Assembly: GCA_026770705.1 (NCBI GenBank)
Contig: JANJGN010000007.1
Span: 168,144,001 to 168,208,000 of the forward strand
Source: Isurus oxyrinchus
Taxonomy: Eukaryota
Direction: 5' to 3'
Length of the DNA: 64,000 bases
Positions 29,871-44,179 of this stretch are shown here, piece after piece. How positions within the stretch are numbered: position 1 is the stretch's first letter; each line of letters opens with the position of its first letter. Both the position numbers and the translations under genes were made by a program. The notes below the pieces were generated by a model. It was not told the DNA's origin, made no database searches, and saw only the letters and a list, made by a program, of their open reading frames with translations.

Positions 29871-30989
29871 GGTGTAATAGCTTGTAAATTTCAGGCTGCA
29901 GATCAAGGTCTGACTTTCTCTCTTTTTTGTAAGATTATTTTGTCCTGCTTAACAAGGTATGAGATTGGTATATGATGTATGGTGTGTGATGGAAAGGTAC
30001 CAGATGCAAGAGTTTATTTGTATAAATATAGATATGATTGTATATATTACAAAATTATCCAGTTGATTACAATGTGTTTGAATGCCTAGACACAAGGTGT
30101 GATAAATTTGTTTTTTCCAGATGTGCTTTCAGAAAAGCCAAGACTACAACTCCTTTCTTTGATTATTTCCATAATCATCTTAAGGTCTTTCTTGATATCC
30201 TTTTATGTTTCAAAATGTTGGATGAGATTCATACCATGTCACTGTGTGCTCCCACAGTAGATTGTACATGCAAAGTGCATGCATGGAGCATATTTTATAT
30301 TCACTTTGGGGAGATGTTAAATTGGTTAAGCCCTTTTGAGTAATGAGTGTATATTACTGCATTTCAGATGCATGTACGTGCATCTAGTTTCAACTTTGAA
30401 AATTACATACGGTAAAATCATCATCATGTATTTTCTGAGGAGGTAAAGTCCAACATGCTCAGGACATTGCTTTTACTAATGGCATTCTGTCAACTCCTGT
30501 AAGCTTTGCATATTTGCATATTAAAGAGCTGGGTAAAGAAATACTTCTTTTATTGCTGCAGCTCATAAATCAGTTTGCATTTCTCCATTAAAATCTGTCT
30601 CAGCAAACTTGAGCAAAAATTGACTGGAATCAAAATACACACACAACCAGGCATACAAATCGATTAGTCATTTGCTTAAAAACAAATTCTTAGGGTTATT
30701 GATGGGTTATTATTTCATTCCTTTAGAAAAGAGAAGTGAAATCAAATTTTTAAAAAATAAAATGGAGAAGGAATAAATGGAATTTGGTGGAAAATTGACC
30801 CTGTTCATCAGTAAAAACGTGTTTTATACATTGGGATATACTGAAAATTTGCTTACTGCGCAGTATTTCTATGAAAAGCTACTTTGCAGTTCCTCTTCCA
30901 AAGAGTATTTTTTATAATCTCCTATATATATGGTTTCTGAAATTATATGAAAACTATAATTTCAGTTAAAAAAATCTCTCAATTTTTTT

Positions 30990-33500
30990 TCCAGCTTCAT
31001 CCCATCTTCTGAATGTAGTGAGTTATACTGTGTGACAGGTTCAATGGTACTGTCATCATTCTTTATCATCCAAGTGTTGTCTTCAAATGTGACCCTGAGC
31101 AAGTCAGTGTTGCTAGGCTGTTTGACTGTTTGTGCATCACAATAGACTCCAGTCATGTTCTGAACCATGATAGCATGTAGGTTATTCTTCCAAGGTCACT
31201 GCACAGGATCAAGGGAAGTGACAAGTTTTCTCCAAATCTGTCTGAAGATGGTTGGTGTACCTGACTGGTCAGCTAACTTTGGTAGACCACCAAGCACTTG
31301 GGACTTCCTTGACCTGTATGCAACAGTATCATGTTGCGTGGCACCTTTATCCATTGCATTACTGACATACTCAAACTTGTGTGTTAAAGAGGCACTGCAC
31401 TGGTCTCTCCGTCAGCTGGAAAGCTCTAACGCAAAGGCACTTGATTGATTATCAACACATGATAACACGTGGATCTTACAATATACGTATAGAACGCTTA
31501 TTCTGATCATATTGTTTACAACCATACGTGATGGTACAGTGATCCCCACTGAGAACCAAGTCGTTTTATTTTAATTACAGCCCCTGAATATACTGAAGTG
31601 AGAATGTCCTCTTCATGGAAAGTTTACTAGAGTTCTGACTCGTTGTTTTCGCATTCTGCAGTGATTTCCCAATAGAAGACATGCTGCTGGCTATAAGAGG
31701 GTGATAATAAGGATCATATTACGGTGTTTCTACAATTTCTGAATTCTAGGTCTACTCTAACTTTCCCTTGCTTTGTTTATTCTTTTGTTAGGTTTTTGAC
31801 AGTTTTCCTTAGTTTCGCTGGCATCTCCCAACTCAGTCACCCTCCGCCCCCCCCCCCCCCCCCCTCAGTCCTCCCATGCCTTTTTCCATCAAGATGCCTG
31901 AATATCCAACTCTATGCTGTTACAACCCACCTCCAGGTAAGGTTCCCCAAAGTTGTTGATCCAGACGAGACCCCTCAATTTGTCATCGTCTGACTGGGAC
32001 ACCCCAAATTGTTATGCCCCAGCTGAGGGATGAACTGGCTCCCTGTCTTTATTCCAGTAGGTTCCAGTGTTGAATTCAGTAGAGAATAGTCAGTTTCGAG
32101 GATCCAGTAGTATTGAATTCGATAGAGAGGGAGCGAGATCGGGATACCTGCAAAATGGCGATTTGCAGGGTAGTGTGTGTGGCTGTTACTCCTCATTCAA
32201 ACTTCGAGCACTTGCTGTCTCAGAACAGCCACCAACAGACAGACACCAGGGCAGCTTTTCAGCTCACTTTTAACCCCTCCTTTGTATATTCACTGATCTG
32301 TCTGGGTGTTGCTCACAAGATTTCTTGATGAGCTGATATTCATTTCAGATGTCCTATTGTCTCTACCGGAGGGAGCAATTAGTTTCTGGATGTCTTTAGA
32401 AGTACTTTCTCTGGCAATAAGTTGGGGTTCCATTACCTCTTAGGGAGTTACCCTGCAGCATTCCAGCCGGTGGCTTGTACATTATTAAAAACTCATCTCT
32501 TATTTTAAAGTCCAATATTTCCAGATGCAATTCAATGATTTTTCTTCATTACCTTGACAATTTACTCTAAATGCCACCAGTACTGTATCTTGACTAAGCC
32601 TCTAGAGTGATGTTCTACTTTCCTTATCCTTCCACTGCCAGGCAATTTGATCAAGCTTGGCAACACACTTTCAGGAATTGTCCAAATGGTAATCTAAGTT
32701 CAGGCTGGAACTTGAGATGGAACTTTTGTTGCTGCTGGATCTTGCTTCTCCAACACGTTTATTTTAAATGAAGGAGACTTCCATCTCTTTAACAGGAAAC
32801 CTGATTGACATCACAGCATTTTCTTTGAAGGTATCATAGGGACAATAATGGTGCCCGTTGGATTGAGGTGTATTGGGTGTCAGCTCCTCATATAATCAGG
32901 CATGAGAGGCTTGAGGCTTATTATTGCTCCTGATGAGCCTAGAGCATCTTTATGTGGCCGGCCAGTGCATAGTATGCCGAGAGCCTGGACACAAAGTGAG
33001 CCGAAGGCTTATTTAAGATCACATTCTGTGTTCAAATAAGGTTTGTTTCCACTAAGTGATTGTAATACCTGCTAAGCAGTTCAGTCATTTAATGATGGTT
33101 ACAAACAAGTGCCAGACATGAATTATGTTCTACATAGTTGATGATGTAAGAGTTTCAAGGACAAGACAATAAATTTCAGACAAGGAGACACTTGATGCGA
33201 CGGTATTAGGACAATTATTACGCAACAAAAGTTATACTTATCAAGGCAATCAATATCCGGTTCAGATGGTCTTGCTTCCCATTCACTCCAGTGGCTACAG
33301 AAGGCTTGTGACTCCTTTCCTCTTTTTCTCCCTATGTCTTCTTGGAGAAGTTGGTTGCACAGATTTCAAGCCATTCTTTTTATTCCCTGTGTTGTCATGT
33401 TCTGGCCTTGTTATCTATCTGTCAGTGCTTATATTAACTCTTCAATTGTGATCACAACCAGTAGTCACAACTCAAACAGCATATCCTTAACATACAAACA
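30990..33500 (-). mobile_element. Decayed LTR retroelement (Gypsy/ERV-like) with LTR end, Pro-like PBS and an unidentified pseudo-ORF
   Basis: The minus strand reads AATAAA(GACAGGG)...GGGGCATAACA (LTR end at 32010), then ...GATGACA-AAT-TGAGGGGTCTCGTCTGGAT (31959-31977; cf. tRNA-Pro PBS). A long, nearly open minus frame follows at about 31570-30990. Outer limits are uncertain. Confidence 0.5.
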
Positions 33501-34501
33501 ATCCATCCATACATGTACTTGAGCCATATAGGCAGTTCTCAGATGAGCACATATCTAAAATTAACCCTTCTACCAGGAACTAATACAAAAAGTATAAAAT
33601 GATTCACATATCCTACACTTGTGAGCTCTGCCCTTTTGGTAGGGTCAGCCAGCTTACCTCTTACTGTATATGTAGTGTTAGGCTTGAAGGCCAGTTTTTT
33701 TTTCCAGACATCACATACACCCCCACTGTCCCAAAAGGTACTTGCTTCCTCAAGTGCACGTCGTCATTTACATGCTGTTGTTGCTGGATTCCTCACCCCT
33801 GCAAGCTCAGTGCTTTGAAGCAGGTCATTAGCAATGGGCTGGATGTAAAATTTAAATATTGCAATAAGCTCACATTGCTTATTTTTGGGCAGATGCATGG
33901 TGGGGGAGCTGTCGAACTAACTGCTTATGTGTTTTGGGTGCTCTTACAAGTTATGAAGTCATCTTTCTCTGGCAGCCACTTCCAATGTATAAATTCCAGT
34001 TTGTGTTAAACTTGCAGTCTCATTTTCACACCAAGTTTATGCCTGCTCAGGATTCTATTCAGTTCTAACATTAAGGTGAATTACAAGCTGACATTTTGAA
34101 AAAGTGTATCAGTGCACTATGAAGACTGATGGTTAGTTCTGTTCTCGTCATTGCTGTCTGTCCTTCCAAACATGTACTGCACTGCGTTATGTGTAACATT
34201 TTAAATAACAGTTGAAGAAACATGGACAAAGAAAATCAATGATGCAGAATAAGCTATGGGCTGTTTCTGTCCTAAAAGAAGTATGAGGGCTTAGTCAAAA
34301 AAATACTGAAACTTATTCATTGGCTTTAAACCTTGTAATAAAGGAGAGAGATCTTGTTCCAAGCCTGGATATCACATTACACAGAAGCAGGTCTTTATGT
34401 GGATTTATCTGTCCTTTGTGTACAGACTGTAAACCCACATAATATGCTAATGAAACCATTTTCTATTACATTAAGGATGCAACTCTCAGGACTTTCTCCA
34501 A

Positions 34502-34565
34502 GGTTCAGTTGTAATAATAAGCATTAAACCTATGGTTCAGTTGTAATAAAAAACATTAAACCCAC
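34502..34565. repeat. 32-bp tandem duplication
   Basis: GGTTCAGTTGTAATAATAAGCATTAAACCTAT followed by GGTTCAGTTGTAATAAAAAACATTAAACCCAC. Confidence 0.9.
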
Positions 34566-36276
34566 TGTACCTAAAAATCATAAAGAAAATACAGTATTTC
34601 ACAATAAGACTTGGTAAGGATTTATGAAGCAGCAAGGCAGTCAACAAATAATCATCAGAACTCATTATGACATTCTATTACTTGTGTTGCAGCATGATGA
34701 AGCGAGGTAAAGCCAGACTGGTCATGCTTAGCACACTGTGTATTCTGCAGATTTCCTCAACACCTCCAGCCCTTCAGTTGGGTGCATTTCCCTGAATACT
34801 GAGTAATGGTTGTGACTCATTGTGTCCCATTTCTGTAGGGCACTGTTCTTATTAGTCAGTTTGAATTTGTTGCAAATGTGGCCACAACTGATTACTTGTT
34901 GGCCCTATTTACTCAGTGTGGCCCAATTGGCATTAATAGTCAGTTGTTACCTGAATAATTGGAACTATTCATCAAATAATGCCTTTTTCATCTTTCATAT
35001 TTGTAAGTGTTTTTGTGTAACCTGATTTGGTTTGCAATATGATTATATTTTGGCATCACTGATTTGTTATCTCTATTTTTTAACATTGCCTCCAAGAAAC
35101 TCAGTTTTCAGTTTATTGCCAAAGCTTTTTTTTTGCTCTCAACAACTCTTAACTTTCTAGCAAATCCAGATTCTTCCAAAACTTAAGAACTTGTCCCATA
35201 TCTGAGGATGTTTCTTCAACACCACTTTGGGCATCTGAACAAGATACAAATAAAAATTTATCATTTGATAGCCAATTATTCTTTACTTTTCCAACAGTCT
35301 CCTCCCCATTTCAATATTTCTTTCCTCTTTATTTTATTTGTACTGCTACTATGGTCGGTACTCTATTGAATCTTGCGTCCTTGTTCCCTCTCAGCTACAA
35401 ATGCACCAATGCATCACTCTTCTTTCTTTATTACACAAATCTTCTACTCCTACCCATTCTTCCCCAGCACCTTAAGACTGCAGAACTCTTTCTCTCCCTT
35501 GGTGTTTCTTTGTTCCTATTATCCACAAGTTTTAAAATCAAGCTTGGCATTGTCTAATAATTGATTTCTAATTGACCTTGTCAGTACTGTCATGTAGTAC
35601 TGCAGTTGTTTCCTTACCTAAGTTTTGCATAGGTTTTTAAACAAAATAATGCCTCAAAATTTCAGGCTAATATTCAGTCCCTGGGCATGGGTAAAAACCC
35701 AAAACAACCTCAACCCGGGCAAAATTTCAATGATGGAGCCATGAAATCTCAAGCTGTCTGTCTCTCTGCCAAAGGTCTATTGTCGTTGTAAATAACAGGC
35801 AAATTACTTGTGCTGCTCTTCACAGGTATAGTAATGTCAAATAACACAGTGGAAGCACAGAAATGCTGATGTCTGAAATCAGGTATTACCCAACAACTGT
35901 GGATCTCTGCTTAGAGATGGAATTCACCATAATTCGGTGGTCCATATAGATGGAAAAAGATTACTTATTTTTGGTTTGAGGAGGGGTGACGTGATTTATT
36001 ATGCTGAATTAATGGATAGAATCAAAATGTTGGATATGGAAAGGCATGTTCTATTGATAATCATAGGACATGATTATGGGTTAATAAAACCACAATATAG
36101 CTTCAACTTCCATGTGTTTAATTTTGAAATGAATGACCATGTGGTGCAGTAAATGCTGCCTCGTTTAAAACATTCAAGAGGCAACTGAATTGATTCCTTA
36201 TTCAGTGGGGTGTGAATTTTGGAATAGGGATGAGATAAAAGTGTTTAATTAAGTAGTCGTTTAGTAGTACAGAACT

Positions 36277-36586
36277 TGAGTATTGCTGAAAAAGAGACAT
36301 TTTTTGTCAAAGCTTTTCATCATGTACTCATCAAGACAATTCGCACGAATATACCAATGTCAGGGGAAATAACATATTTTAACTCTATGAGAAGAAAGTG
36401 CTGATTGGTTGGCAAGAGGATGATGCCTCTACCTATCAGAGTCCACTTGCCAACCAATTAGCACTCTCTTCTCATGTAGTGTGAATATATTGTTTCTCCT
36501 GACATTGGTATTTTCTTTTGAATTGTCCTGATGAGTGCAAGATGAAAAGCTTTGACAAATTAAGTCTCTTTTTTCAGCAATACTCA
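36277..36586. mobile_element. 310-bp fold-back element (inverted Penelope-like pLTRs)
   Basis: Arms 36277-36420 and 36442-36586 are near-exact reverse complements (TGAGTATTGCTGAAAAAGAGAC...GTCTCTTTTTTCAGCAATACTCA). The spacer is about 21 nt. Confidence 0.9.
36523..36558 (+). ncRNA. Minimal type I hammerhead ribozyme motif (mirror copy at 36304-36339 on the minus strand)
   Basis: TTGTC-CTGATGA-GTGCAAGAT-GAAA-AGCT-TT-GACAA: a 5-bp stem I, intact core boxes, a 2-bp stem II and a palindromic AAGCTT stem III. Activity is untested. Confidence 0.65.
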
Positions 36587-37329
36587 GATTAGTTAATTCT
36601 TACCAACTAACGTTGAGAGTGGCAAAAGAGACTGACCCCCGTCTTGTTGCTACATTGTTATGTAATAGTGACAAGAGCAGAATAAGCGGTGGTGATTAAG
36701 GATGGCTTTTGGCAAGTGATCATTATACTTGAAATAATTGTTTGCCTTTATCAAAGTCAACAAGACAATGAAGATCAGCCATGATTGTGGATTAGTCTGT
36801 GGAAGTTGCACTTCTACAAAATGTTTTAATATAAAATGGATTCCTTGTTTCAAAGACAAGGAAGTATGCGATGTAAATAAAAATGAATGTGAAACTGAAC
36901 TTCACAGTACCTCTAATTCAGTGCTATGCTGCAATGAGCTTTGCGTAAGTGCACATGCACATGTGAGGCACTGATAATATTAAAATTCAAAAACCGTGTA
37001 GGTGCTGTAATTCCTAGTTTTCTTAATAGAAATTTCATGCAAATAACCTTCCTTTCAATATTGCTTTCACCTTTCAATTGTGAGTGGGTCTTGTGCCGAA
37101 ATTAACATAATACAGCGTACTGCAGCTCATAGTGTAACTCAACCCAGCTATATTGCTCGTGCCTACAAGTGCAATCTCCAGAGTTGCAAGGACTTGTCCG
37201 TTAACTGTAAGATGATTACAGCTGGTCAGCATTCTGGACAAATACTCCTGGCCCACACATCCCCATAAATATGACTCAGTTTCCACTGTGCTCAATCTAG
37301 CATACACTGCTCAGGATTATGTGTATTCT

Positions 37330-37630
37330 TGTGGGAGAATCTAGAACTCGGGGTCACTGTTTCAAAATAAGGGGTCGCCCATTTAGGGAAGAGATGAGGA
37401 AACATTTCTTCTCTCAGAGGGTTGTGTGACTTTGGAACTCCCTTTCTCAAAAGGTGATTGAGGCAGAGTCCTTGAATATCTTTAATGTAGAGTCAGGTAG
37501 ATTCCAAGCAAGGAGGAGAAAGGTTATTGGGGGTAGGCAGGAATATGAGCTTAAAGTTATATCAGCCATGAGCTTATTGAATGGTGGAGCAGGGGCCAAG
37601 TGGCCTACTCCTGCTCCTAATTCGTATGTT
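37330..37630 (+). mobile_element. CR1 LINE 3' end
   Basis: GAATCTAGAACTCGGGGTCACTGTTTCAAAATAAGGGGTCGCCCATTTAGG..TTCTCTCAGAGGGTTGTG..GAATGGTGGAGCAGG..TGGCCTACTCCTGCTCCTAATTCGTATGTT. Confidence 0.9.
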
Positions 37631-37794
37631 CATAAATCCTTTCTGGTTGAGAGCAAAAGCGGGCTTCTGTGTGATGTCCTCCACAACCAAATACCTGCTA
37701 ATTCACTGTCAAAGCTCACATGATTACTGGGCACTTGAGCAAGGTGCGAAGGGTAGCATTTGTTCTCCATGGACCTCCAAGATGGTGAATGCTT

Positions 37795-38195
37795 CTGACA
37801 AAGAGGGGCACAAATCTCTAATAAATTACAATAAGGAATTCAAGAGAAACTTCTTTGCCCAGAGAATGATTAGAATATGGAACTTGTTATCACATCACAA
37901 CAGTAACTACAATTCAAAAATATTCAGCAGTATTTCATTGGATTTAAATTGATTAGGGACCTCTTGAAGCCATGAAAGGTGCTACATAGACGCATGTCTT
38001 GCTTTCTTTTTCACATGGAGTAGTTGAGGCAAATAGCAGAGATATATTTATGGGGAAGATGGATGAGCACATGAGGGAGAAAGGAATAGCAGGTTGTGCT
38101 GATAGTATTAGATGAAAAAGGGTTACAGGAGGTTTATGTGGAGCGTAAATGCAGGCATAGAAGTATGGCCTATTTCGCTGCTGTAAATACTATGC
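37795..38195 (+). mobile_element. CR1 LINE 3' end interrupted by a SINE/L2 3' tail (37896-38010)
   Basis: The CR1 sequence GGAACTTGTTATCACAT|GGAGTAGTTGAGG is split. TCACAT is duplicated at 37890-37895 and 38011-38016. Confidence 0.8.
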
Positions 38196-38537
38196 TATAC
38201 ATGCATAAATGCATGTTTATGTATTAGTTACCCAGCAGACTTGGATGACATTGTGGTATATAGATCTCCAAATAAAATCTTTGCATTCTGAACTCTTGAA
38301 ATGATCTGTGCTTTAGTCATGGAAAGTCCCTCACCTTTTAAAAGCAGCTATCTTTTATGACGTATTTTTAAGCAAAGTGTTATTTAAGGGAATCTATATG
38401 TTGTTCTAAATGAAATTGTGTTTTCTTACCAGCAGATTTCTAGTTGTCAAACCAAAATCTTGAAATAAGACTATACAGTTTTGCATCTGCTGCATATCAT
38501 TGGCTGCATGCCAATGATCATGGTAAAATGTTACCAA

Positions 38538-38576
38538 CTCTCTCTCTCTCGCGCACACACACACACACACACACAC
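38538..38576. repeat. Compound microsatellite (CT)n-GCGC-(AC)n
   Basis: Read directly from the sequence. Confidence 0.95.
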
Positions 38577-39778
38577 CTGCATTCAGTTTGAGTTATCCAC
38601 CCTCCTTTGTTCAGTAACAGGCAATGTTGTGTGTCCTGCAACAGACATTTTGTGCAATTATCGTGCAATTCCTTCTATCTTTATACAGCATTTTTTCCAC
38701 TTGTGTATCCCTACTGCTAGAAGTGCACAATGGGAAATCACTTGCATATAATTTACCATATTCTAGTCGTCACTAAGCTCCCAATATCCAGCAGCATACA
38801 CCAAAAAAGACCCTTAGTTTTCCATGTATTTTCATTATATGCATTATTATTGTTAAAATCTTTCCCCGGGGAATTTTAAGTCTGCTGTGTGGTGCAGATC
38901 AAGCAACTTCTTGTTTGCTCTTTAGTTATCCTCCCTTAGCCTCTGATCCTGTTTCCTGAAGAACTCACTGAGTTCACTGTGAATCTGATCGTTTTTTGCT
39001 GGACTGCTCTTGTGTCACGCCTTCATTTCATTTGGCATTTAGGTCCCTGTCACTGACACCACTTTTCTTACATGTATTTACAGTAACTGCATACTGATTC
39101 CACTTTGAGCAATAAGCTTTCTACCATTAATCTAAAATTCTTATGTACGGTAATTTTCTTTTATTAAGTTATACTTATGGAAGAAAATTCACACATACTA
39201 ATACCATATAATAAGAATATTGCTTGCTTATTCATAGTGTGGGATCTGGAGTGGTAAAGGGCAGTTCAATGCATCAAACTTGCACCATCTTGAAGGCATT
39301 GTATGGTTATTCTGTTCTGCACTAACTCCTTGTTTCTCCCACCATTGTAACATGTCGATTCTTTAATTCAAGAACAGTAATAAGAAATTAAAATTGACAA
39401 TGATAACTCTATATTCTGATTGTAATAAATATGGCAGACAATGGCTGGGCCGGCATTTACCAGTTGCCCTTGAGAAGAGCATATTTTGAGGTAACCAGTG
39501 TTATTGTAATTTTAAAATCAAGTGGAAAAAGTTGCATCTTCAATTACAATTTTAGGCTTTGTAAAGTGACAGCTGCCAGAGTGAAAGTGTTAACAAAGCG
39601 TTTACACACTACAGTTCATAAAAACACAAAACTAATAAAAGCAAATCAGGTAATAATGAAGTGGGTTGCAGCATCCACAGATAGATACGTTCATAATAAG
39701 ACTACATGCTTTAAATACTTCATGGAGAAACTAGCCCAGCAATAATGGGTGTTCTAATATGAAGGACATTTTGTTGCA

Positions 39779-39825
39779 CTTCAGGGAAAGGGTCACTCCT
39801 CTTCAGGGAAAGGGTCACTCGTCTT
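39779..39825. repeat. 22-bp tandem duplication
   Basis: CTTCAGGGAAAGGGTCACTC occurs at 39779 and again at 39801. Confidence 0.95.
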
Positions 39826-39831
39826 GTTTTT

Positions 39832-40603
39832 GGGTAGAATCTTGTTGAGGTGTCAGGGGTCTCACCTGTTCACCATCCAGTCGGCAGGTGAGACCCACAC
39901 AACTGCTTTTCAGGAAGGCCCGCTGAACCTAACGCCAATCAGGCAGTGGCAAGACCAGAAGGTGGGCCTACCCATGGAATCAGGTCCCTGGGGTTGGAAG
40001 TCTTCCCAAGCAAGAGCTGCTGGCCATTCAGAGGCCGGCAGCTCGTGCTCAGCAGCACCAAGGAGGAGGCTGTGGCGGCTGCCAGAAGAACATCACCTCA
40101 GAGTCCCAGGATTGCGGAGAAACCTAGGACAAAGGTAAGTGATGTTATGGAAGTGGTGGTTTTGCAGGATGGAAGTCGTGGGGCCTCTGAGGGCTGCAGG
40201 GGGTTCAGAAGCAAGGGCAGGAGTTGACTTTCAGTAGCCTCCTCCACCATCCCCTTCCAGCTGTCCATTCTCCACCACTGCCCCCCCCCAACTCCCAGCC
40301 CCCACCAGGAGGTGACAAGCTGCTGCAGGGTAGCAGCTGTCATGCACGCCGCATGGCAACAGACCAGCCAGCAGATGGGTTAATCCCAGCAGTGGTGGGC
40401 TGAAGCACTTAAGTGGCCTTAATTGCTAATTAACAGCCTCAATAAGTGCCAGGGCAGGAAGGTTGACCGTGGACCTTCCCGCCCAGAATTTATTTCAGGC
40501 AGAGGCGGGTTGGCGGCAGGGTTCGGGTACAGCATCATCCCACCTAAGTATATGCCCTTCCTGCCTCTACGCTTGCCACCAGTGAGTGCACAAGATTCCA
40601 CCC
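39832..40603. mobile_element. Harbinger-type MITE (about 772 bp), same family as 9465-10170
   Basis: TIR GGGTAGAATCTTGT versus reverse complement GGGTGGAATCTTGT (13/14). Flanks are TTT and ATT (2/3 TSD). Collinear with 9465-10170. Confidence 0.85.
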
Positions 40604-41589
40604 ATTATTTTGTTTTGGATGTCTCATGTGTGCTGACACCCAGTACTTAGATCTTCACTCTTCAATCTATCCTGTATTTGGGTACCTCTTGGAGGAATGC
40701 TGTTTAATACCCTTACATACCCATCATTGTGATATGAGAACATTACTATTTGTGGTTAACTACATTGAAATTCAGATTTGCCCAAGAAATGGGACATCTA
40801 ATGGAACAGATAACTTTCATTCCTGGTAACTGGCTTCAAGTTTATCCCAGGCTGAAGAAATGGGATTCTATTGTGGGCATAAGCCAAAAGCACAAAACTG
40901 CCAATAATTCTGGCAGTTTTACAAGAAATAAGAGCTACAGGTGTTATAAAAAAGAAATGTTGCTGTTGGGGTTTGAGGTGAAGAGATTTTTGTTGGAGCG
41001 GTGTGTAGGAGCTTATATCTTGCATGGAACCAATGTTATCCCTGATCTGGGAAACTAAACATTGATGTTTTCATAAGCGATTAATGTTGAGTCTTGGTGA
41101 GGTTTGAGGTTTACACTGATGCCAACCTATTATCCAATGTTTGCCTTTCTAGTCATGGGAAAGATAAGGCAAGTGAAATTTTATTGTATTCCCCATTCTA
41201 GTAGGTAACATTGCTTTTTGGGGGCAATTCATAAATGTATCCTGAAATTCTGCTCTAAACAAGGCTGTCTGTCACCAATTAGGAGGCCTATGTCAGCTAC
41301 CACACACACTGTATGGTATATCACAGCAAAAGAAAAACAGACCAGCTGGCTCAGCTTGTCCCCTCCTGATGGGAGCAGGGGGGGTGGTTTGGGTGGTGTT
41401 TTTTTGTGTGGCGGTGGTGGAGAACTGGACATCATGAAGGTAGGGTTGTGGAGTGAGGGTGGGGGGCTGCTGGAAGTTGACTCCTGCCCTTGCTTCTGAA
41501 CCCCCTGCAGCCCTCTCCCCACGACCTCTACCCTGCAAAACCACCCACTCTTACCACATCACTGATGTGTGTGCAAGTAATATGCTCCA

Positions 41590-41900
41590 TGAGCAACCTT
41601 GTCTGCCATATCTTGTCTTCATTAAGTCCTGCTCATCATCCATCATCCTCATCCTTACCTTCCAATGCATTCAATTTAAACTCCTCATCCTCCACTACAA
41701 GTTTCTCCACAAGTTCTTGCACCCTATCTCTGCAGTCTCCTTGAACACTATAACCTCTCCTGAACACTCCGTTCCTTAGACTCCAGCATTCTCAACTTTT
41801 CCCCCCTCCCTTTGCACCACCAGTGAAGACAAAACTTTCAGCATCCTTGATCCTTGTCTCTGGAACAACCTTTTAAAATCTCTCCGCCTATTCTCCACCT
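41590..41900 (+). mobile_element. Old L2-clade LINE ORF2 C-terminal fragment
   Basis: FQCIQFKLLILHYKFLH (cf. QRIxFKILxLxYKxLH), followed by a region resembling GxxAFSxxxPxLWNxL (CCTTGTCTCTGGAACAACCTT). Confidence 0.6.
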
Positions 41901-44179
41901 TGTAATTTACCAACAATTGAAGTAAGAACTCCACAAAATGTTCTAGGCTCTCTACTTGTTGTTCTACGACCTCAATATCCACATCCTGACTATCTATGTC
42001 TTTTCTGACAATGAGGCAAAGTGCATATTTAGTACTCTGATTTCTCTGCTCTGTATTACAAGCATACTTCATTCAACTTTTAGAAACCTGGCCATGTCTA
42101 TTGCCCTAAAAAAATCTCTAGGTATTTTAGTATTTTGTCTTGTGATTACTCATACCCTCTTTCAGCCTTTCTAATCGACATTTTGTAGCTTTCAGATATA
42201 AAATTATTTGTCCTGACTTTTTTTTTAAACTAGCGTATTGTACTTGCTTTGTCCTGTCTTTAACCCACTCATAGCAGATTTATTCTGGCATTTACTGTAT
42301 TTCTTTTATTTTGAGAACATTGGCTACTGTTAGATTGCCTTCCTGCTTTACCTGAAATATGCTTTACATTTTTCTACTCTTCAGATAACAAAAATTCAAT
42401 CCTATACAAACCGATAGCTATAAATGTATAAAACTAAATTAACTAAGCGACAGAATCCCATTCTTATGTGCCTCAAGAGATTCTTTTCTCAAGCGACCTG
42501 GTTGTCAGCCATCATACTCCCTTCAAAAGCTCAGATGTTACGGTGGAGGATTGTCATGGAAAGCGAAGCCAAGTCATCCTTAGGTCATTGCAACTCGCAG
42601 GAGTGAGCGTGCTTTTATTGACACCCAGTTGTCAGCATAGCTGGGTTATGAAAGCTGCCAGACTCAACTCATTTCTAGAGGCATGTGTTCAAATCTCACT
42701 TCTAGCATTTATTTTAAAGAAGAGATCCTGAATTTTGTATGGATTACACTTCAGCTCATCAAGATATGACTGGCTATTTTCCAGGAATCCTTGACTCTGC
42801 TCTTTGAGCTTTGCACTACAGTTCTATGTATTTTCTAATCATGTCATTAACAAATTCCAGTAAACGTTATCTACTATGAATAAGGCTCATGATGAAGCAC
42901 TGACTATGGTGTGTTTTCAGGATGTGTTAACAAGACTGACAAAAGGCCAGCTACTTTCCGGGAGTTAACATCGCTTATCATGATCAGCATCTTTTTAGGG
43001 TCAGCAATTCTTTTCAATGCCAGGTTGCAGTGTAATCCTATGACTGTCAAGTAACATCAACCATGCCAGAAAACATCAAGTCCGCTAGGTATTTTGGAAC
43101 AGCGCAGAGAGAATGAGTGCAGGCAAAAGCTGGTTTGTTTATTTGTATTTACCAGTAGGCTCCATTGAGTACATAATATTGAGTTGTCAGCCCCAGGCTC
43201 CTGAAAGTTGTATGATAGCTTGGTAGTGTAAAGAGTATTTACTGGTAATTCCAGCTGAATTACAGTTAGTGTCATTGATATTAACTGAATCTAGAAGGAT
43301 TTTATAACCTTTATAAAATATGCAGATTGAAGCCGTTAAATAATTCAGGTGATCCAAAAATACGATGTCCGCCCTCACAGCTATAGTAATAAAGTATGTC
43401 TTTATTAATGGGGAAAAGGGAGTTAATAAAATTCCCTTATTTTAGAAACCTGTGCAGAAAGGGCTAATTGTTTAGGAGTACTCCTTCACCAGCCATCCTT
43501 GATTATTAGTTTTTTTTAAACAAATGTTTAGTGGATTTGTGCTCATTGAGGTGAGGGATGATCGTGCCTGGAAAGGAAATTTTTTTCTGCATTGCATTCC
43601 CTGCTATTAGCATCAACCACTTACTGTATGTAGGTGTAAAGCTCCTGCTACTCTGCCTACATATTGCACTCCAGCTCTGGTTCAAAGGAGCATCCTGTAC
43701 CATACCAATGTGCGGCAGTTCTTAATCTCTCACACCAGCCATTATTGTGCCTGAGGTAGGTTGCCAATTTGAGCTGATTTCCTGCTGTGGAGCTAAGCAC
43801 ATTCAGACCTAGATTTGATCTCTTGAAGCGTATTTCAATTAGGACAAGATAAAAATCATGATATTATAAAAAGAAAGAAAAACACCTGCACACTCTTGGT
43901 TGGATTAAATCCAGATCCTTGAGTGAGAGGACTTATTCTAAACAACAGAGCAACAGAGACACTCTCAATGTTCAATTGTAAGACTAGATACAATAAACTG
44001 GCTTGTTGGTCTTGCTGGTTATAGTAAACAGTAAGTTCATTGGATTGACGTGAGTCCTATGCATTACCAATTACTTGAATGATTGAAATTTTTTAACCAT
44101 ACTGTCTTATTTTCTACACTTCATTCATAAGGTTATAGACATAACAATTCTACAACATGTTTTCATTGTTCTTGTTACA

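What the first reader, a model, noticed from the sequence alone, without database searches (positions are those of the whole stretch)
36277..36586. 310-bp palindrome with a minimal hammerhead ribozyme on each strand
Seen: arms of about 145 bp. The plus strand has TTGTC-CTGATGA-GTGCAAGAT-GAAA-AGCT-TT-GACAA (36523-36558). The minus strand has TTGTC-TTGATGA-GTACATGAT-GAAA-AGCT-TT-GACAA (36339-36304). Established: minimal type I hammerheads with a palindromic stem III occur in Penelope-like elements and are thought to cleave as dimers. Inference: either a minimal inverted-pLTR insertion or a non-coding retrozyme-like unit. A transcript from either direction would contain a hammerhead within a long hairpin that could sequester it or be an ADAR/Dicer substrate. 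The T bases in GATGAAA and TTGAC look like CpG decay.
Basis: partly seen in the sequence, partly recalled or inferred. Interest (0 to 1): 0.7.

Follow-up and report, generated by a model that had tools for sequence, protein, structure and literature searches.

The report
Mirror-image Penelope retrotransposon stub
This DNA hairpin is real but ordinary: it is two short, back-to-back stubs of the end of a common Penelope-type jumping gene, likely pasted in together in one old insertion, and its two small self-cutting RNA motifs have decayed and are predicted to be disabled.

Summary
They belong to a large, old Penelope-like element (PLE) family: longer copies run into a reverse transcriptase plus GIY-YIG-like frame, and the window's own left arm encodes that frame's first 16 codons. 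The unit is 36255-36586. One arm carries a 22-nt tail, the other lacks it, and a decayed 12-bp target duplication is possible. Junctions differ in 22 of 22 short copies and this junction occurs once in the genome, so it is not a fixed-length mobile unit or retrozyme. CpG decay is confirmed. The minus-strand hammerhead also has C3U, and in a hairpin transcript both motifs are predicted to be sequestered. Inverted pLTRs, one-sided tails and opposite-strand hammerhead pairs are published. This scan noted the same layout on other DNA of this genome. Two family-level points remain: the tail is on one arm in 43 of 50 pairs and on both in none, and ribozyme core sites have diverged about half as much as their neighbours. 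Most likely mechanism (about 0.6): both cut target ends prime reverse transcription, at two different start sites. Low interest.

The parts
36255..36586 (.). Whole insertion: two 5'-truncated PLE 3' ends joined head to head, 3' ends pointing outward
   Evidence: Alignment of 19 copies; sharp loose end at 36254 in 216 and 232 contigs of two runs, with no shared flank
36255..36420 (-). Tail-bearing arm (145 nt of pLTR plus 22-nt tail)
36255..36276 (-). 22-nt tail, present on this arm only; encodes part of the ORF's N-terminus
   Evidence: 20 of 22 matches to the family tail; random maximum 15 in 5000 draws; translation
36254..36300 (-). First 16 codons of the PLE ORF (ATG at 36300-36298; MSLF, then one base short in the T run, then SAILKFCTTKRL in the next frame)
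   Evidence: 7-9 of 12 residues match the N-termini of 5 of 44 full-length relatives, control maximum 5
36304..36339 (-). Minimal type I hammerhead motif, decayed: C3U, C11.1U, C17U and two loop II changes; predicted inactive
36421..36422 (.). Head-to-head junction (2 bases assigned to neither arm); unique in the genome
36423..36586 (+). Tail-less arm (164 nt of pLTR), with CCAAT-like repeats and a decayed TATA-like box near 36480 (promoter role inferred from motifs only)
   Evidence: other copies continue upstream from 36423 with family sequence (table 7)
36523..36558 (+). Minimal type I hammerhead motif: core boxes intact, but C11.1U (G10.1-C11.1 becomes G-U) and C17U by CpG decay; cleavage site would be 36553/36554
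36243..36254 (+). Possible target-site duplication, left copy (9 of 12 identical to the right copy)
   Evidence: Sequence; score 5, reached by 81 of 812 mismatched pairs, so not significant alone
36587..36598 (+). Possible target-site duplication, right copy
   Evidence: Same as the left copy

Best explanation
This is an old, doubly truncated head-to-head insertion of a Penelope-like retrotransposon: two short copies of the element's hammerhead-bearing 3' end, one with the 22-nt tail and one without, likely made when the element's enzyme cut an AT-rich site on both strands and each free DNA end primed reverse transcription of the element's RNA. Shown: family membership, boundaries, one-sided tail, variable junctions, a family-wide target-duplication signal and CpG decay. 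Inferred (about 0.6): one target end primed at the outer RT start site (giving the tail) and the other at the inner site 22 nt upstream; both cDNAs stopped after about 165 nt and were joined at their ends. The hammerhead likely served the parent element (RNA processing, as a dimer through the AAGCUU palindrome, possibly protein-assisted). In this stub it is a passenger with no ORF to serve: one copy has C3U, both lost the G10.1-C11.1 pair and C17, and a transcript across the stub is predicted to bury both in the hairpin.
For: Family: 6078 candidates, 40 scored, 82 matches at 73-91% identity apart from the self match. Longer copies continue into an ORF with YVDDTF and a C-terminal xVYEFxCxC..YVGxT motif. 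103 relatives at E <= 1e-10. Of 38 aligned relatives, 37 match RVT_1 and 17 match GIY-YIG at E <= 0.05. The window arm encodes the ORF start. Junctions: 22 distinct of 22 short pairs; arm spacing runs from 16 nt to 3.7 kb. Tail on exactly one arm in 24 of 28 pairs found with the palindrome and in 19 of 22 found with the RT region; on both arms in none. TSD score: mean 5.2 in 29 pairs against 2.5 in 812 mismatched pairs; 7 of 29 scored >= 9, no control above 7. Bases at the tail end are A,T,T,T in 37, 28, 25 and 25 of 40 arms, in line with the ATT cut preference of PAc (PMC11167929, text read). In 14 of 20 one-tail short pairs the tail-less arm is at least 8 nt longer, so each arm holds sequence the other lacks and neither is a simple copy of the other. 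PAc cuts and extends both strands and has two RT start sites that define the tail (PMC11167929).
Against: No intact or full-length copy was seen: the longest match starts at residue 46 of 850 among 39 loci. Pfam finds no GIY-YIG in the decayed copies themselves, only weak RVT_1 in 2 of 7 frames, and GIY-YIG scores in relatives are below the curated cut-off. This copy's TSD is not significant alone. 18 of 39 RT-selected loci showed no pair of pLTR ends within the fetched stretch. [quoted passage not shown] Ribozyme core sites are more conserved than plain neutral decay predicts.
Confidence: 0.9

Rival explanations
1. Same identity, different mechanism: the inverted arm comes from self-priming or fold-back (for example on an antisense template), and the endonuclease then trims one end, leaving the tail on one side.
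For: Proposed for Adineta PLEs from palindromes at inverted junctions (PMC3846280, passages); the tail is ascribed to EN-mediated resolution in PMC8557442 (passages). Arms of one insertion share derived bases about twice as often as chance (37 against 18.2; 0.88% against 0.50%), and indel markers agree in 29 of 34 pairs. Resolution by the endonuclease would explain the strict one-tail rule naturally.
Against: A plain fold-back copy cannot give a short arm that has the tail and a long arm that lacks it, as in 14 of 20 one-tail short pairs, unless a longer intermediate is trimmed afterwards. Junction overlaps range from a 9-nt overlap to a 30-nt insert, with no constant hairpin.
Confidence: 0.3
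2. A distinct non-autonomous mobile unit (retrozyme-like or MITE-like palindrome) that spreads as a fixed 330-bp element.
For: Many palindromes of 290-350 bp exist (22 short pairs), with similar outer ends.
Against: All 22 junctions differ, and this junction is unique at up to 1 mismatch in 24 bases. The similar size follows from the query: lengths continue up to 3.7 kb. The ends are asymmetric, not terminal inverted repeats. Non-LTR retrozymes are defined as tandem same-strand repeats (bioRxiv 10.64898/2026.07.22.740005, part 1 read); here the motifs lie on opposite strands, so one transcript holds only one sense hammerhead.
Confidence: 0.04
3. The stub has been co-opted as a structured RNA (ADAR or Dicer substrate, or regulated ribozyme switch).
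For: Very stable hairpin. Non-CpG core sites show about half the divergence of their neighbours across 96 arms (4.0% against about 8%).
Against: The arms differ by about 18%, and each carries 10-11 private differences from the family majority in 117 columns, as expected for independent decay. This copy has C3U on one arm. Across the family the CpG-born G12A change is not purged (27 of 93 arms, against 35.5% G>A at coding-region CpGs). No covariation above shuffles in 16 arms.
Confidence: 0.04

Closest known systems
Inverted-pLTR insertions of canonical EN+ Penelope-like elements (Adineta vaga Pen2a, PMC3846280; general scheme in PMC8557442 Fig. 2 legend)
   Same: Head-to-head inverted 5'-truncated copy; tail on one end only; pLTR plus tail encode the first ORF residues (12 and 22 aa in Pen2a, about 9 and 16 here); TSDs of about 8-12 bp in part of the copies.
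   Different: Both arms here are so short that no RT or EN sequence is left; the tail is 22 nt, not 30-40 nt; vertebrate-like host.
Minimal type I hammerheads (min-HHR) of metazoan PLEs (PMC4209133)
   Same: Core boxes, 5-bp helix I, palindromic 15.2-16.2 region (AAGCUU), located in the pLTR. That paper already reports dual min-HHRs 100-700 bp apart on opposite strands in Schistosoma mansoni.
   Different: Helix II is only 2 bp with a 5-nt loop (7-8 bp in S. mansoni); no clear extra base between positions 9 and 10.1; both copies here are decayed.
PAc (Poseidon, Anolis carolinensis; PMC11167929)
   Same: Hammerhead next to the ORF start; tail inside the ORF's 5' end; AT-rich, ATT-like insertion sites; C-terminal GIY-YIG-type endonuclease.
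   Different: In PAc the ORF starts at stem II, 26 bp upstream of the cut site, and RT starts 111-118 bp into the ORF. Here the putative ATG lies 8 nt downstream of the cut site and the two ends fall about 25 and 47 nt into the ORF.
Non-LTR retrozymes (bioRxiv 10.64898/2026.07.22.740005; PMC7229834 seen in a search listing only)
   Same: Non-coding, PLE-derived, type I hammerhead, similar size.
   Different: Retrozymes are head-to-tail tandem repeats on one strand with a fixed monomer; this unit is inverted, occurs once, and its family's junctions vary.

Membership tests
Canonical EN+ Penelope-like elements | Single ORF with RT followed by a C-terminal GIY-YIG endonuclease | tested here: met
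   Family copies align along residues 71-850 of an 850-aa relative in RT-then-EN order; 37 of 38 relatives match RVT_1 and 17 of 38 match GIY-YIG at E <= 0.05, the latter below Pfam's cut-off. The stub itself holds only the first 16 codons.
Canonical EN+ Penelope-like elements | pLTR with a hammerhead ribozyme overlapping the ORF start | tested here: met
   Motif in 96 aligned arms; ORF N-terminus 8 nt downstream of the cut site
Canonical EN+ Penelope-like elements | 5'-truncated, inverted or partial-tandem insertions with a one-sided tail | tested here: met
   43 of 50 head-to-head pairs have one tail, 7 none, 0 two. No full-length copy with a direct 5' pLTR was seen in 39 loci.
Canonical EN+ Penelope-like elements | RT grouping with PLE and telomerase RTs in a phylogeny | not tested
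   No tree was built. A profile search of PDB gave only weak RT hits, telomerase at E 0.55-0.66, which is uninformative.
Penelope/Poseidon clade (against Neptune, Nematis) | No CX2-5CxxC zinc-finger-like motif in the RT-EN linker (PMC8557442, passages) | tested here: met
   No such motif upstream of the GIY-YIG-like motif in alignment A2; judged by eye, clade not confirmed by a tree
Minimal type I hammerhead ribozyme | Conserved core, helices I and II, palindromic helix III region | tested here: met
   Met for the family's ancestral state: 95.6% of cells paired in 16 hand-picked arms of 96. Two monomers cofold through the palindrome. In the window the plus copy keeps the core with wobble changes and the minus copy has C3U.
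Minimal type I hammerhead ribozyme | Covariation in the stems | tested here: inconclusive
   1 pair with a change on both sides, reached by 121 of 500 shuffles; one family from a common source has little power
Minimal type I hammerhead ribozyme | Self-cleavage (as a dimer or protein-assisted) | not testable with these tools
   Needs an in vitro assay
Non-LTR retrozyme | Tandem same-strand repeats, each with a hammerhead, fixed monomer | tested here: not met
   Opposite strands, variable junctions
MITE / non-autonomous DNA transposon | Symmetric terminal inverted repeats, fixed length, fixed-length TSD, no retroelement link | tested here: not met
   Asymmetric ends, lengths 0.3-3.7 kb, variable TSD-like repeats, continuous with an RT ORF

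The most novel reading that the evidence does not exclude
The family records an obligately asymmetric, two-template insertion reaction. A dimeric PLE enzyme primes both ends of one cut, always one at the outer and one at the inner RT start site (tail on both arms in 0 of 50 pairs, about 9 expected if independent), from two separate RNA molecules drawn from a pool in which the ribozyme core was under selection (core divergence about half that of its neighbours even between the two arms of one insertion, while the CpG-born G12A is unpurged). Thousands of such pairs would be a natural read-out of the unresolved PLE insertion mechanism.
Probability: 0.2. Interest if true: 0.45.

Novelty: new member of a known kind. 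Interest (0 to 1): 0.14.

Why it matters
This locus matters little: it is one of thousands of decayed copies, and the layout is in print. The family matters somewhat more. The PLE insertion mechanism is still open, and a strict one-tail rule plus TSDs in many head-to-head pairs constrains models (two-ended priming against fold-back with trimming). It also warns annotators that such hairpins score as miRNA precursors or MITEs when they are retrotransposon stubs.

Tried and rejected
Rfam scan: no hammerhead family matched; the miRNA hits reflect only the hairpin. Monomer folding: the hammerhead fold is not the minimum-energy structure (z of 0.7 and 1.0 for the two 36-mers; +0.3 and +0.7 kcal/mol when imposed). 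The third sequence was cut off-register and is ignored. A second tail on the right arm: rejected. Expression: no RNA holder listed; contigs of two possible RNA runs covered only the repeat, through many other copies, and none of the unique flanks; this is no evidence either way, and editing or small RNAs could not be tested. One template or two: third-position differences were 15.8% against 13.0% at second positions within 6 insertions (p = 0.25), and 14.0% against 11.3% between insertions; inconclusive, and the synonymous count there is biased by CpG decay and by selection of in-frame blocks. Coding-region arms differ by 13.3% within and 13.2% between insertions; also not decisive. Trinucleotide context explains only part of the core conservation (expected ratio 0.81-0.86, observed about 0.5). 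One search used a mis-indexed structure string and is superseded. Host gene context: 11 open frames of >= 100 aa in 30000-43000, none overlapping the element and none followed up, so intron or intergenic status is unknown. The Luense, Weinberg and Breaker paper on dimeric PLE hammerheads is not held; I saw only a review's passages on it (PMC6765202). Two literature searches (Penelope + inverted + twin priming + retrotransposition; Penelope + shark + hammerhead ribozyme) listed 2 and 1 papers, none on this point by title; the library lacks most subscription journals and I saw no supplements, so the one-tail rule and two-ended priming may be in print elsewhere.

Full report
Observation. The region 36277-36586 is a gapped inverted repeat of 81.5% identity over 314 columns (84% ungapped over 132 nt). 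It folds at -194.1 kcal/mol against -75.2 +/- 5.5 for shuffles (z = -21.8). Both hammerhead-like motifs are at the stated coordinates. Rfam returned no hammerhead family at E <= 10. Read with standard numbering (recalled), the motif has a 5-bp stem I, the CUGAUGA and GAAA boxes, a 2-bp stem II with a 5-nt loop, and the palindrome AAGCUU in place of stem III.

A repeat family. The window lies in a 4.98-Gb genome. A search with 36254-36609 gave 6078 candidates, of which 40 were scored (82 matches). I examined 39 of those 40 places. Nineteen palindromic copies align from a sharp end that matches 36254/36255 to an end near 36586, with variable centres. Contigs of two public runs also break at 36254 into unrelated flanks (216 and 232 loose ends, agreement about 0.4), and continue upstream of 36423 with family sequence. 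The other 20 places are the same element with longer arms.

The family is a Penelope-like retrotransposon. Long arms run into decayed reading frames with YVDDTF, LPFLD and VYEFQCQCDARYVG motifs. A search with the RT region gave 4679 candidates, 40 scored. A 311-aa natural open frame found 103 relatives at E <= 1e-10, many of 800-900 aa. Of 38 aligned relatives, 37 match Pfam RVT_1 and 17 match GIY-YIG at E <= 0.05, below the curated cut-off. The decayed copies themselves gave only weak RVT_1 hits in 2 of 7 frames. tblastn places the hammerhead arm about 150-170 nt downstream of the ORF end in most of 20 loci. The RT-EN linker shows no CX2-5CxxC motif, which points to the Penelope/Poseidon type by the criterion in PMC8557442 (passages); no tree was built. 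The window itself carries the link: its minus arm reads MSLF and, one base shifted, SAILKFCTTKRL, and 7-9 of 12 residues match the N-termini of 5 of 44 full-length relatives, with a control maximum of 5. Adineta pLTRs likewise include the first ORF codons, extended by the tail (PMC3846280, passages).

Architecture. The insertion is two 3' ends joined head to head. The left arm has 145 nt plus a 22-nt tail; the right arm has 164 nt and no tail; 2 bases lie between them. All 22 short pairs have different junctions, and this junction occurs once in the genome at up to one mismatch in 24 bases. Arm spacing runs from 16 nt to 3.7 kb, so the cluster near 330 bp reflects my query. The tail is on exactly one arm in 24 of 28 pairs found with the palindrome (4 none) and in 19 of 22 pairs found with the RT region (3 none), and never on both. 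For the 34 pairs, 6.2 two-tail pairs were expected under independence (P = 0.001); for all 50 distinct pairs about 9 (my arithmetic). Of the 39 RT-selected loci, 18 showed no pair of pLTR ends in the fetched stretch, and none was full length. Target duplications show at family level: mean score 5.2 in 29 one-tail pairs against 2.5 in 812 mismatched pairs, 7 of 29 at >= 9 and no control above 7. The window's candidate (36243-36254 and 36587-36598, 9 of 12 identical) scores 5, which 81 of 812 controls reach. Bases at the tail end are A,T,T,T in 37, 28, 25 and 25 of 40 arms.

State of the ribozymes. At the two hammerhead CpGs, CG survives in 11 and 17 of 96 arms; the rest are mostly TG (53, 48) or CA (25, 20). 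The TG excess probably reflects the query, which has TG at both sites. The core motif is intact in 43 of 96 arms, and 2 pass all my criteria for the ancestral state. The window's plus copy keeps the core but has C11.1U and C17U. The minus copy also has C3U; C3 and G8 mutations abolish the PAc hammerhead (C3G, G8C; PMC11167929, parts 1-2 read), so loss of activity with C3U is an inference. In a transcript of the whole stub from either strand, about 94% of hammerhead positions pair across the long hairpin and stem I has probability near 0. Two isolated monomers cofold through the palindrome, as expected for dimers. Stems are 95.6% paired in 16 hand-picked arms, but covariation does not exceed shuffles.

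A result that does not fit plain decay. Ten non-CpG core sites mismatch at 4.0%, against about 8% for local non-core sites (37 observed, 60.9 expected from matched trinucleotides; permutation P = 0.00035). This holds in both query sets and between the two arms of single insertions (6.9% against 13.6%). Context estimated from the coding region predicts a ratio of 0.81, not 0.5. Yet G12A, which removes a catalytic base (recalled), stands in 27 of 93 arms, close to the 35.5% G>A at coding CpGs. So selection on genomic copies for catalysis is unlikely. Selection among templates before insertion, with arms drawn from different RNA molecules, would fit, as would unmodelled wider sequence context. 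A codon-position test did not decide it, and arms of one insertion share derived bases about twice as often as chance.

Mechanism. In 14 of 20 one-tail short pairs the tail-less arm is at least 8 nt longer than the tailed arm, as in the window. Each arm then holds sequence the other lacks, which a simple fold-back copy cannot give. PAc protein cuts and extends both target strands, prefers ATT, starts RT at two internal sites that bound the tail, and is predicted to be a dimer (PMC11167929). I therefore favour priming from both target ends, one at each start site, with early termination and end joining (about 0.6). Fold-back on a longer or antisense intermediate with endonuclease trimming (PMC3846280, PMC8557442, passages) remains open (about 0.3). 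The PAc paper saw no strand difference in start sites, so the strict asymmetry is not explained by it.

What is known. Inverted 5'-truncated copies and a tail at one end are standard PLE features (PMC8557442 Fig. 2 legend; PMC3846280). Minimal hammerheads in pLTRs, weak dimer-dependent cleavage, and dual motifs 100-700 bp apart on opposite strands are in PMC4209133 (parts 1-2 read). Non-LTR retrozymes are tandem same-strand repeats (bioRxiv 10.64898/2026.07.22.740005, part 1 and passages), which this is not. Earlier notes of this scan describe the same layout on other DNA of this genome (none near this place). They are unchecked AI notes and not independent support; one of them states the same two-ended reading that I draw from PMC11167929. 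They call the host a shark; I did not test that.

Verdict. It is a new member of a known kind and of low interest. The one-tail rule and the core conservation are modest family-level leads on the PLE insertion mechanism.

Noticed in passing
window 40155-40322 and 41352-41545: A second, GC-rich long inverted repeat (pieces of 29-54 nt at 86-91% complementarity, 1.0-1.3 kb apart, I2, I4, I5), unrelated to the hammerhead arm.
   Followed up: no
window 21690 (+), 7621 (+), 50119 (+), 63101 (-): Other matches to a loose CTGAnGA...GAAA pattern; 21690 has a short possible stem II. May be chance or other PLE families.
   Followed up: no
window 34502-34562 and 39779-39822: Two short near-perfect tandem duplications (29 nt x 2 at 93%; 22 nt x 2 at 95%).
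   Followed up: no
window 37430-37950: A different dispersed repeat shared with loci L002, L007, L008 and L028 at 65-79% identity; a 123-aa open frame overlaps it at 37581-37952.
   Followed up: no
L029 about 1650; L038 about 1730-1830: Junction inserts of 15 and 30 nt; the 15-nt insert in L029 resembles the pLTR/tail boundary of the same element, suggesting an extra template jump.
   Followed up: no
L032 about 970-1480: A degenerate tandem array (about 65-70% identity between units) directly beyond the tail of a PLE copy.
   Followed up: no
96 aligned arms (L001-L081): Subfamilies marked by small deletions just 5' of stem I and just 3' of the cleavage site; the markers agree between the two arms in 29 of 34 pairs.
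   Followed up: partly
L057 2544-3161 (+): A 206-aa open frame with GAIDCTHV and NMQLVC motifs, resembling a Harbinger/DDE-type transposase-derived nuclease (recalled resemblance, not searched).
   Followed up: no
window 35700-37200: Two public runs differ from the window at 14 flank positions shown by single contigs (table 3): allelic or population variation around the insertion; their contigs reach into the element from both flanks, so the insertion is likely present there too.
   Followed up: no
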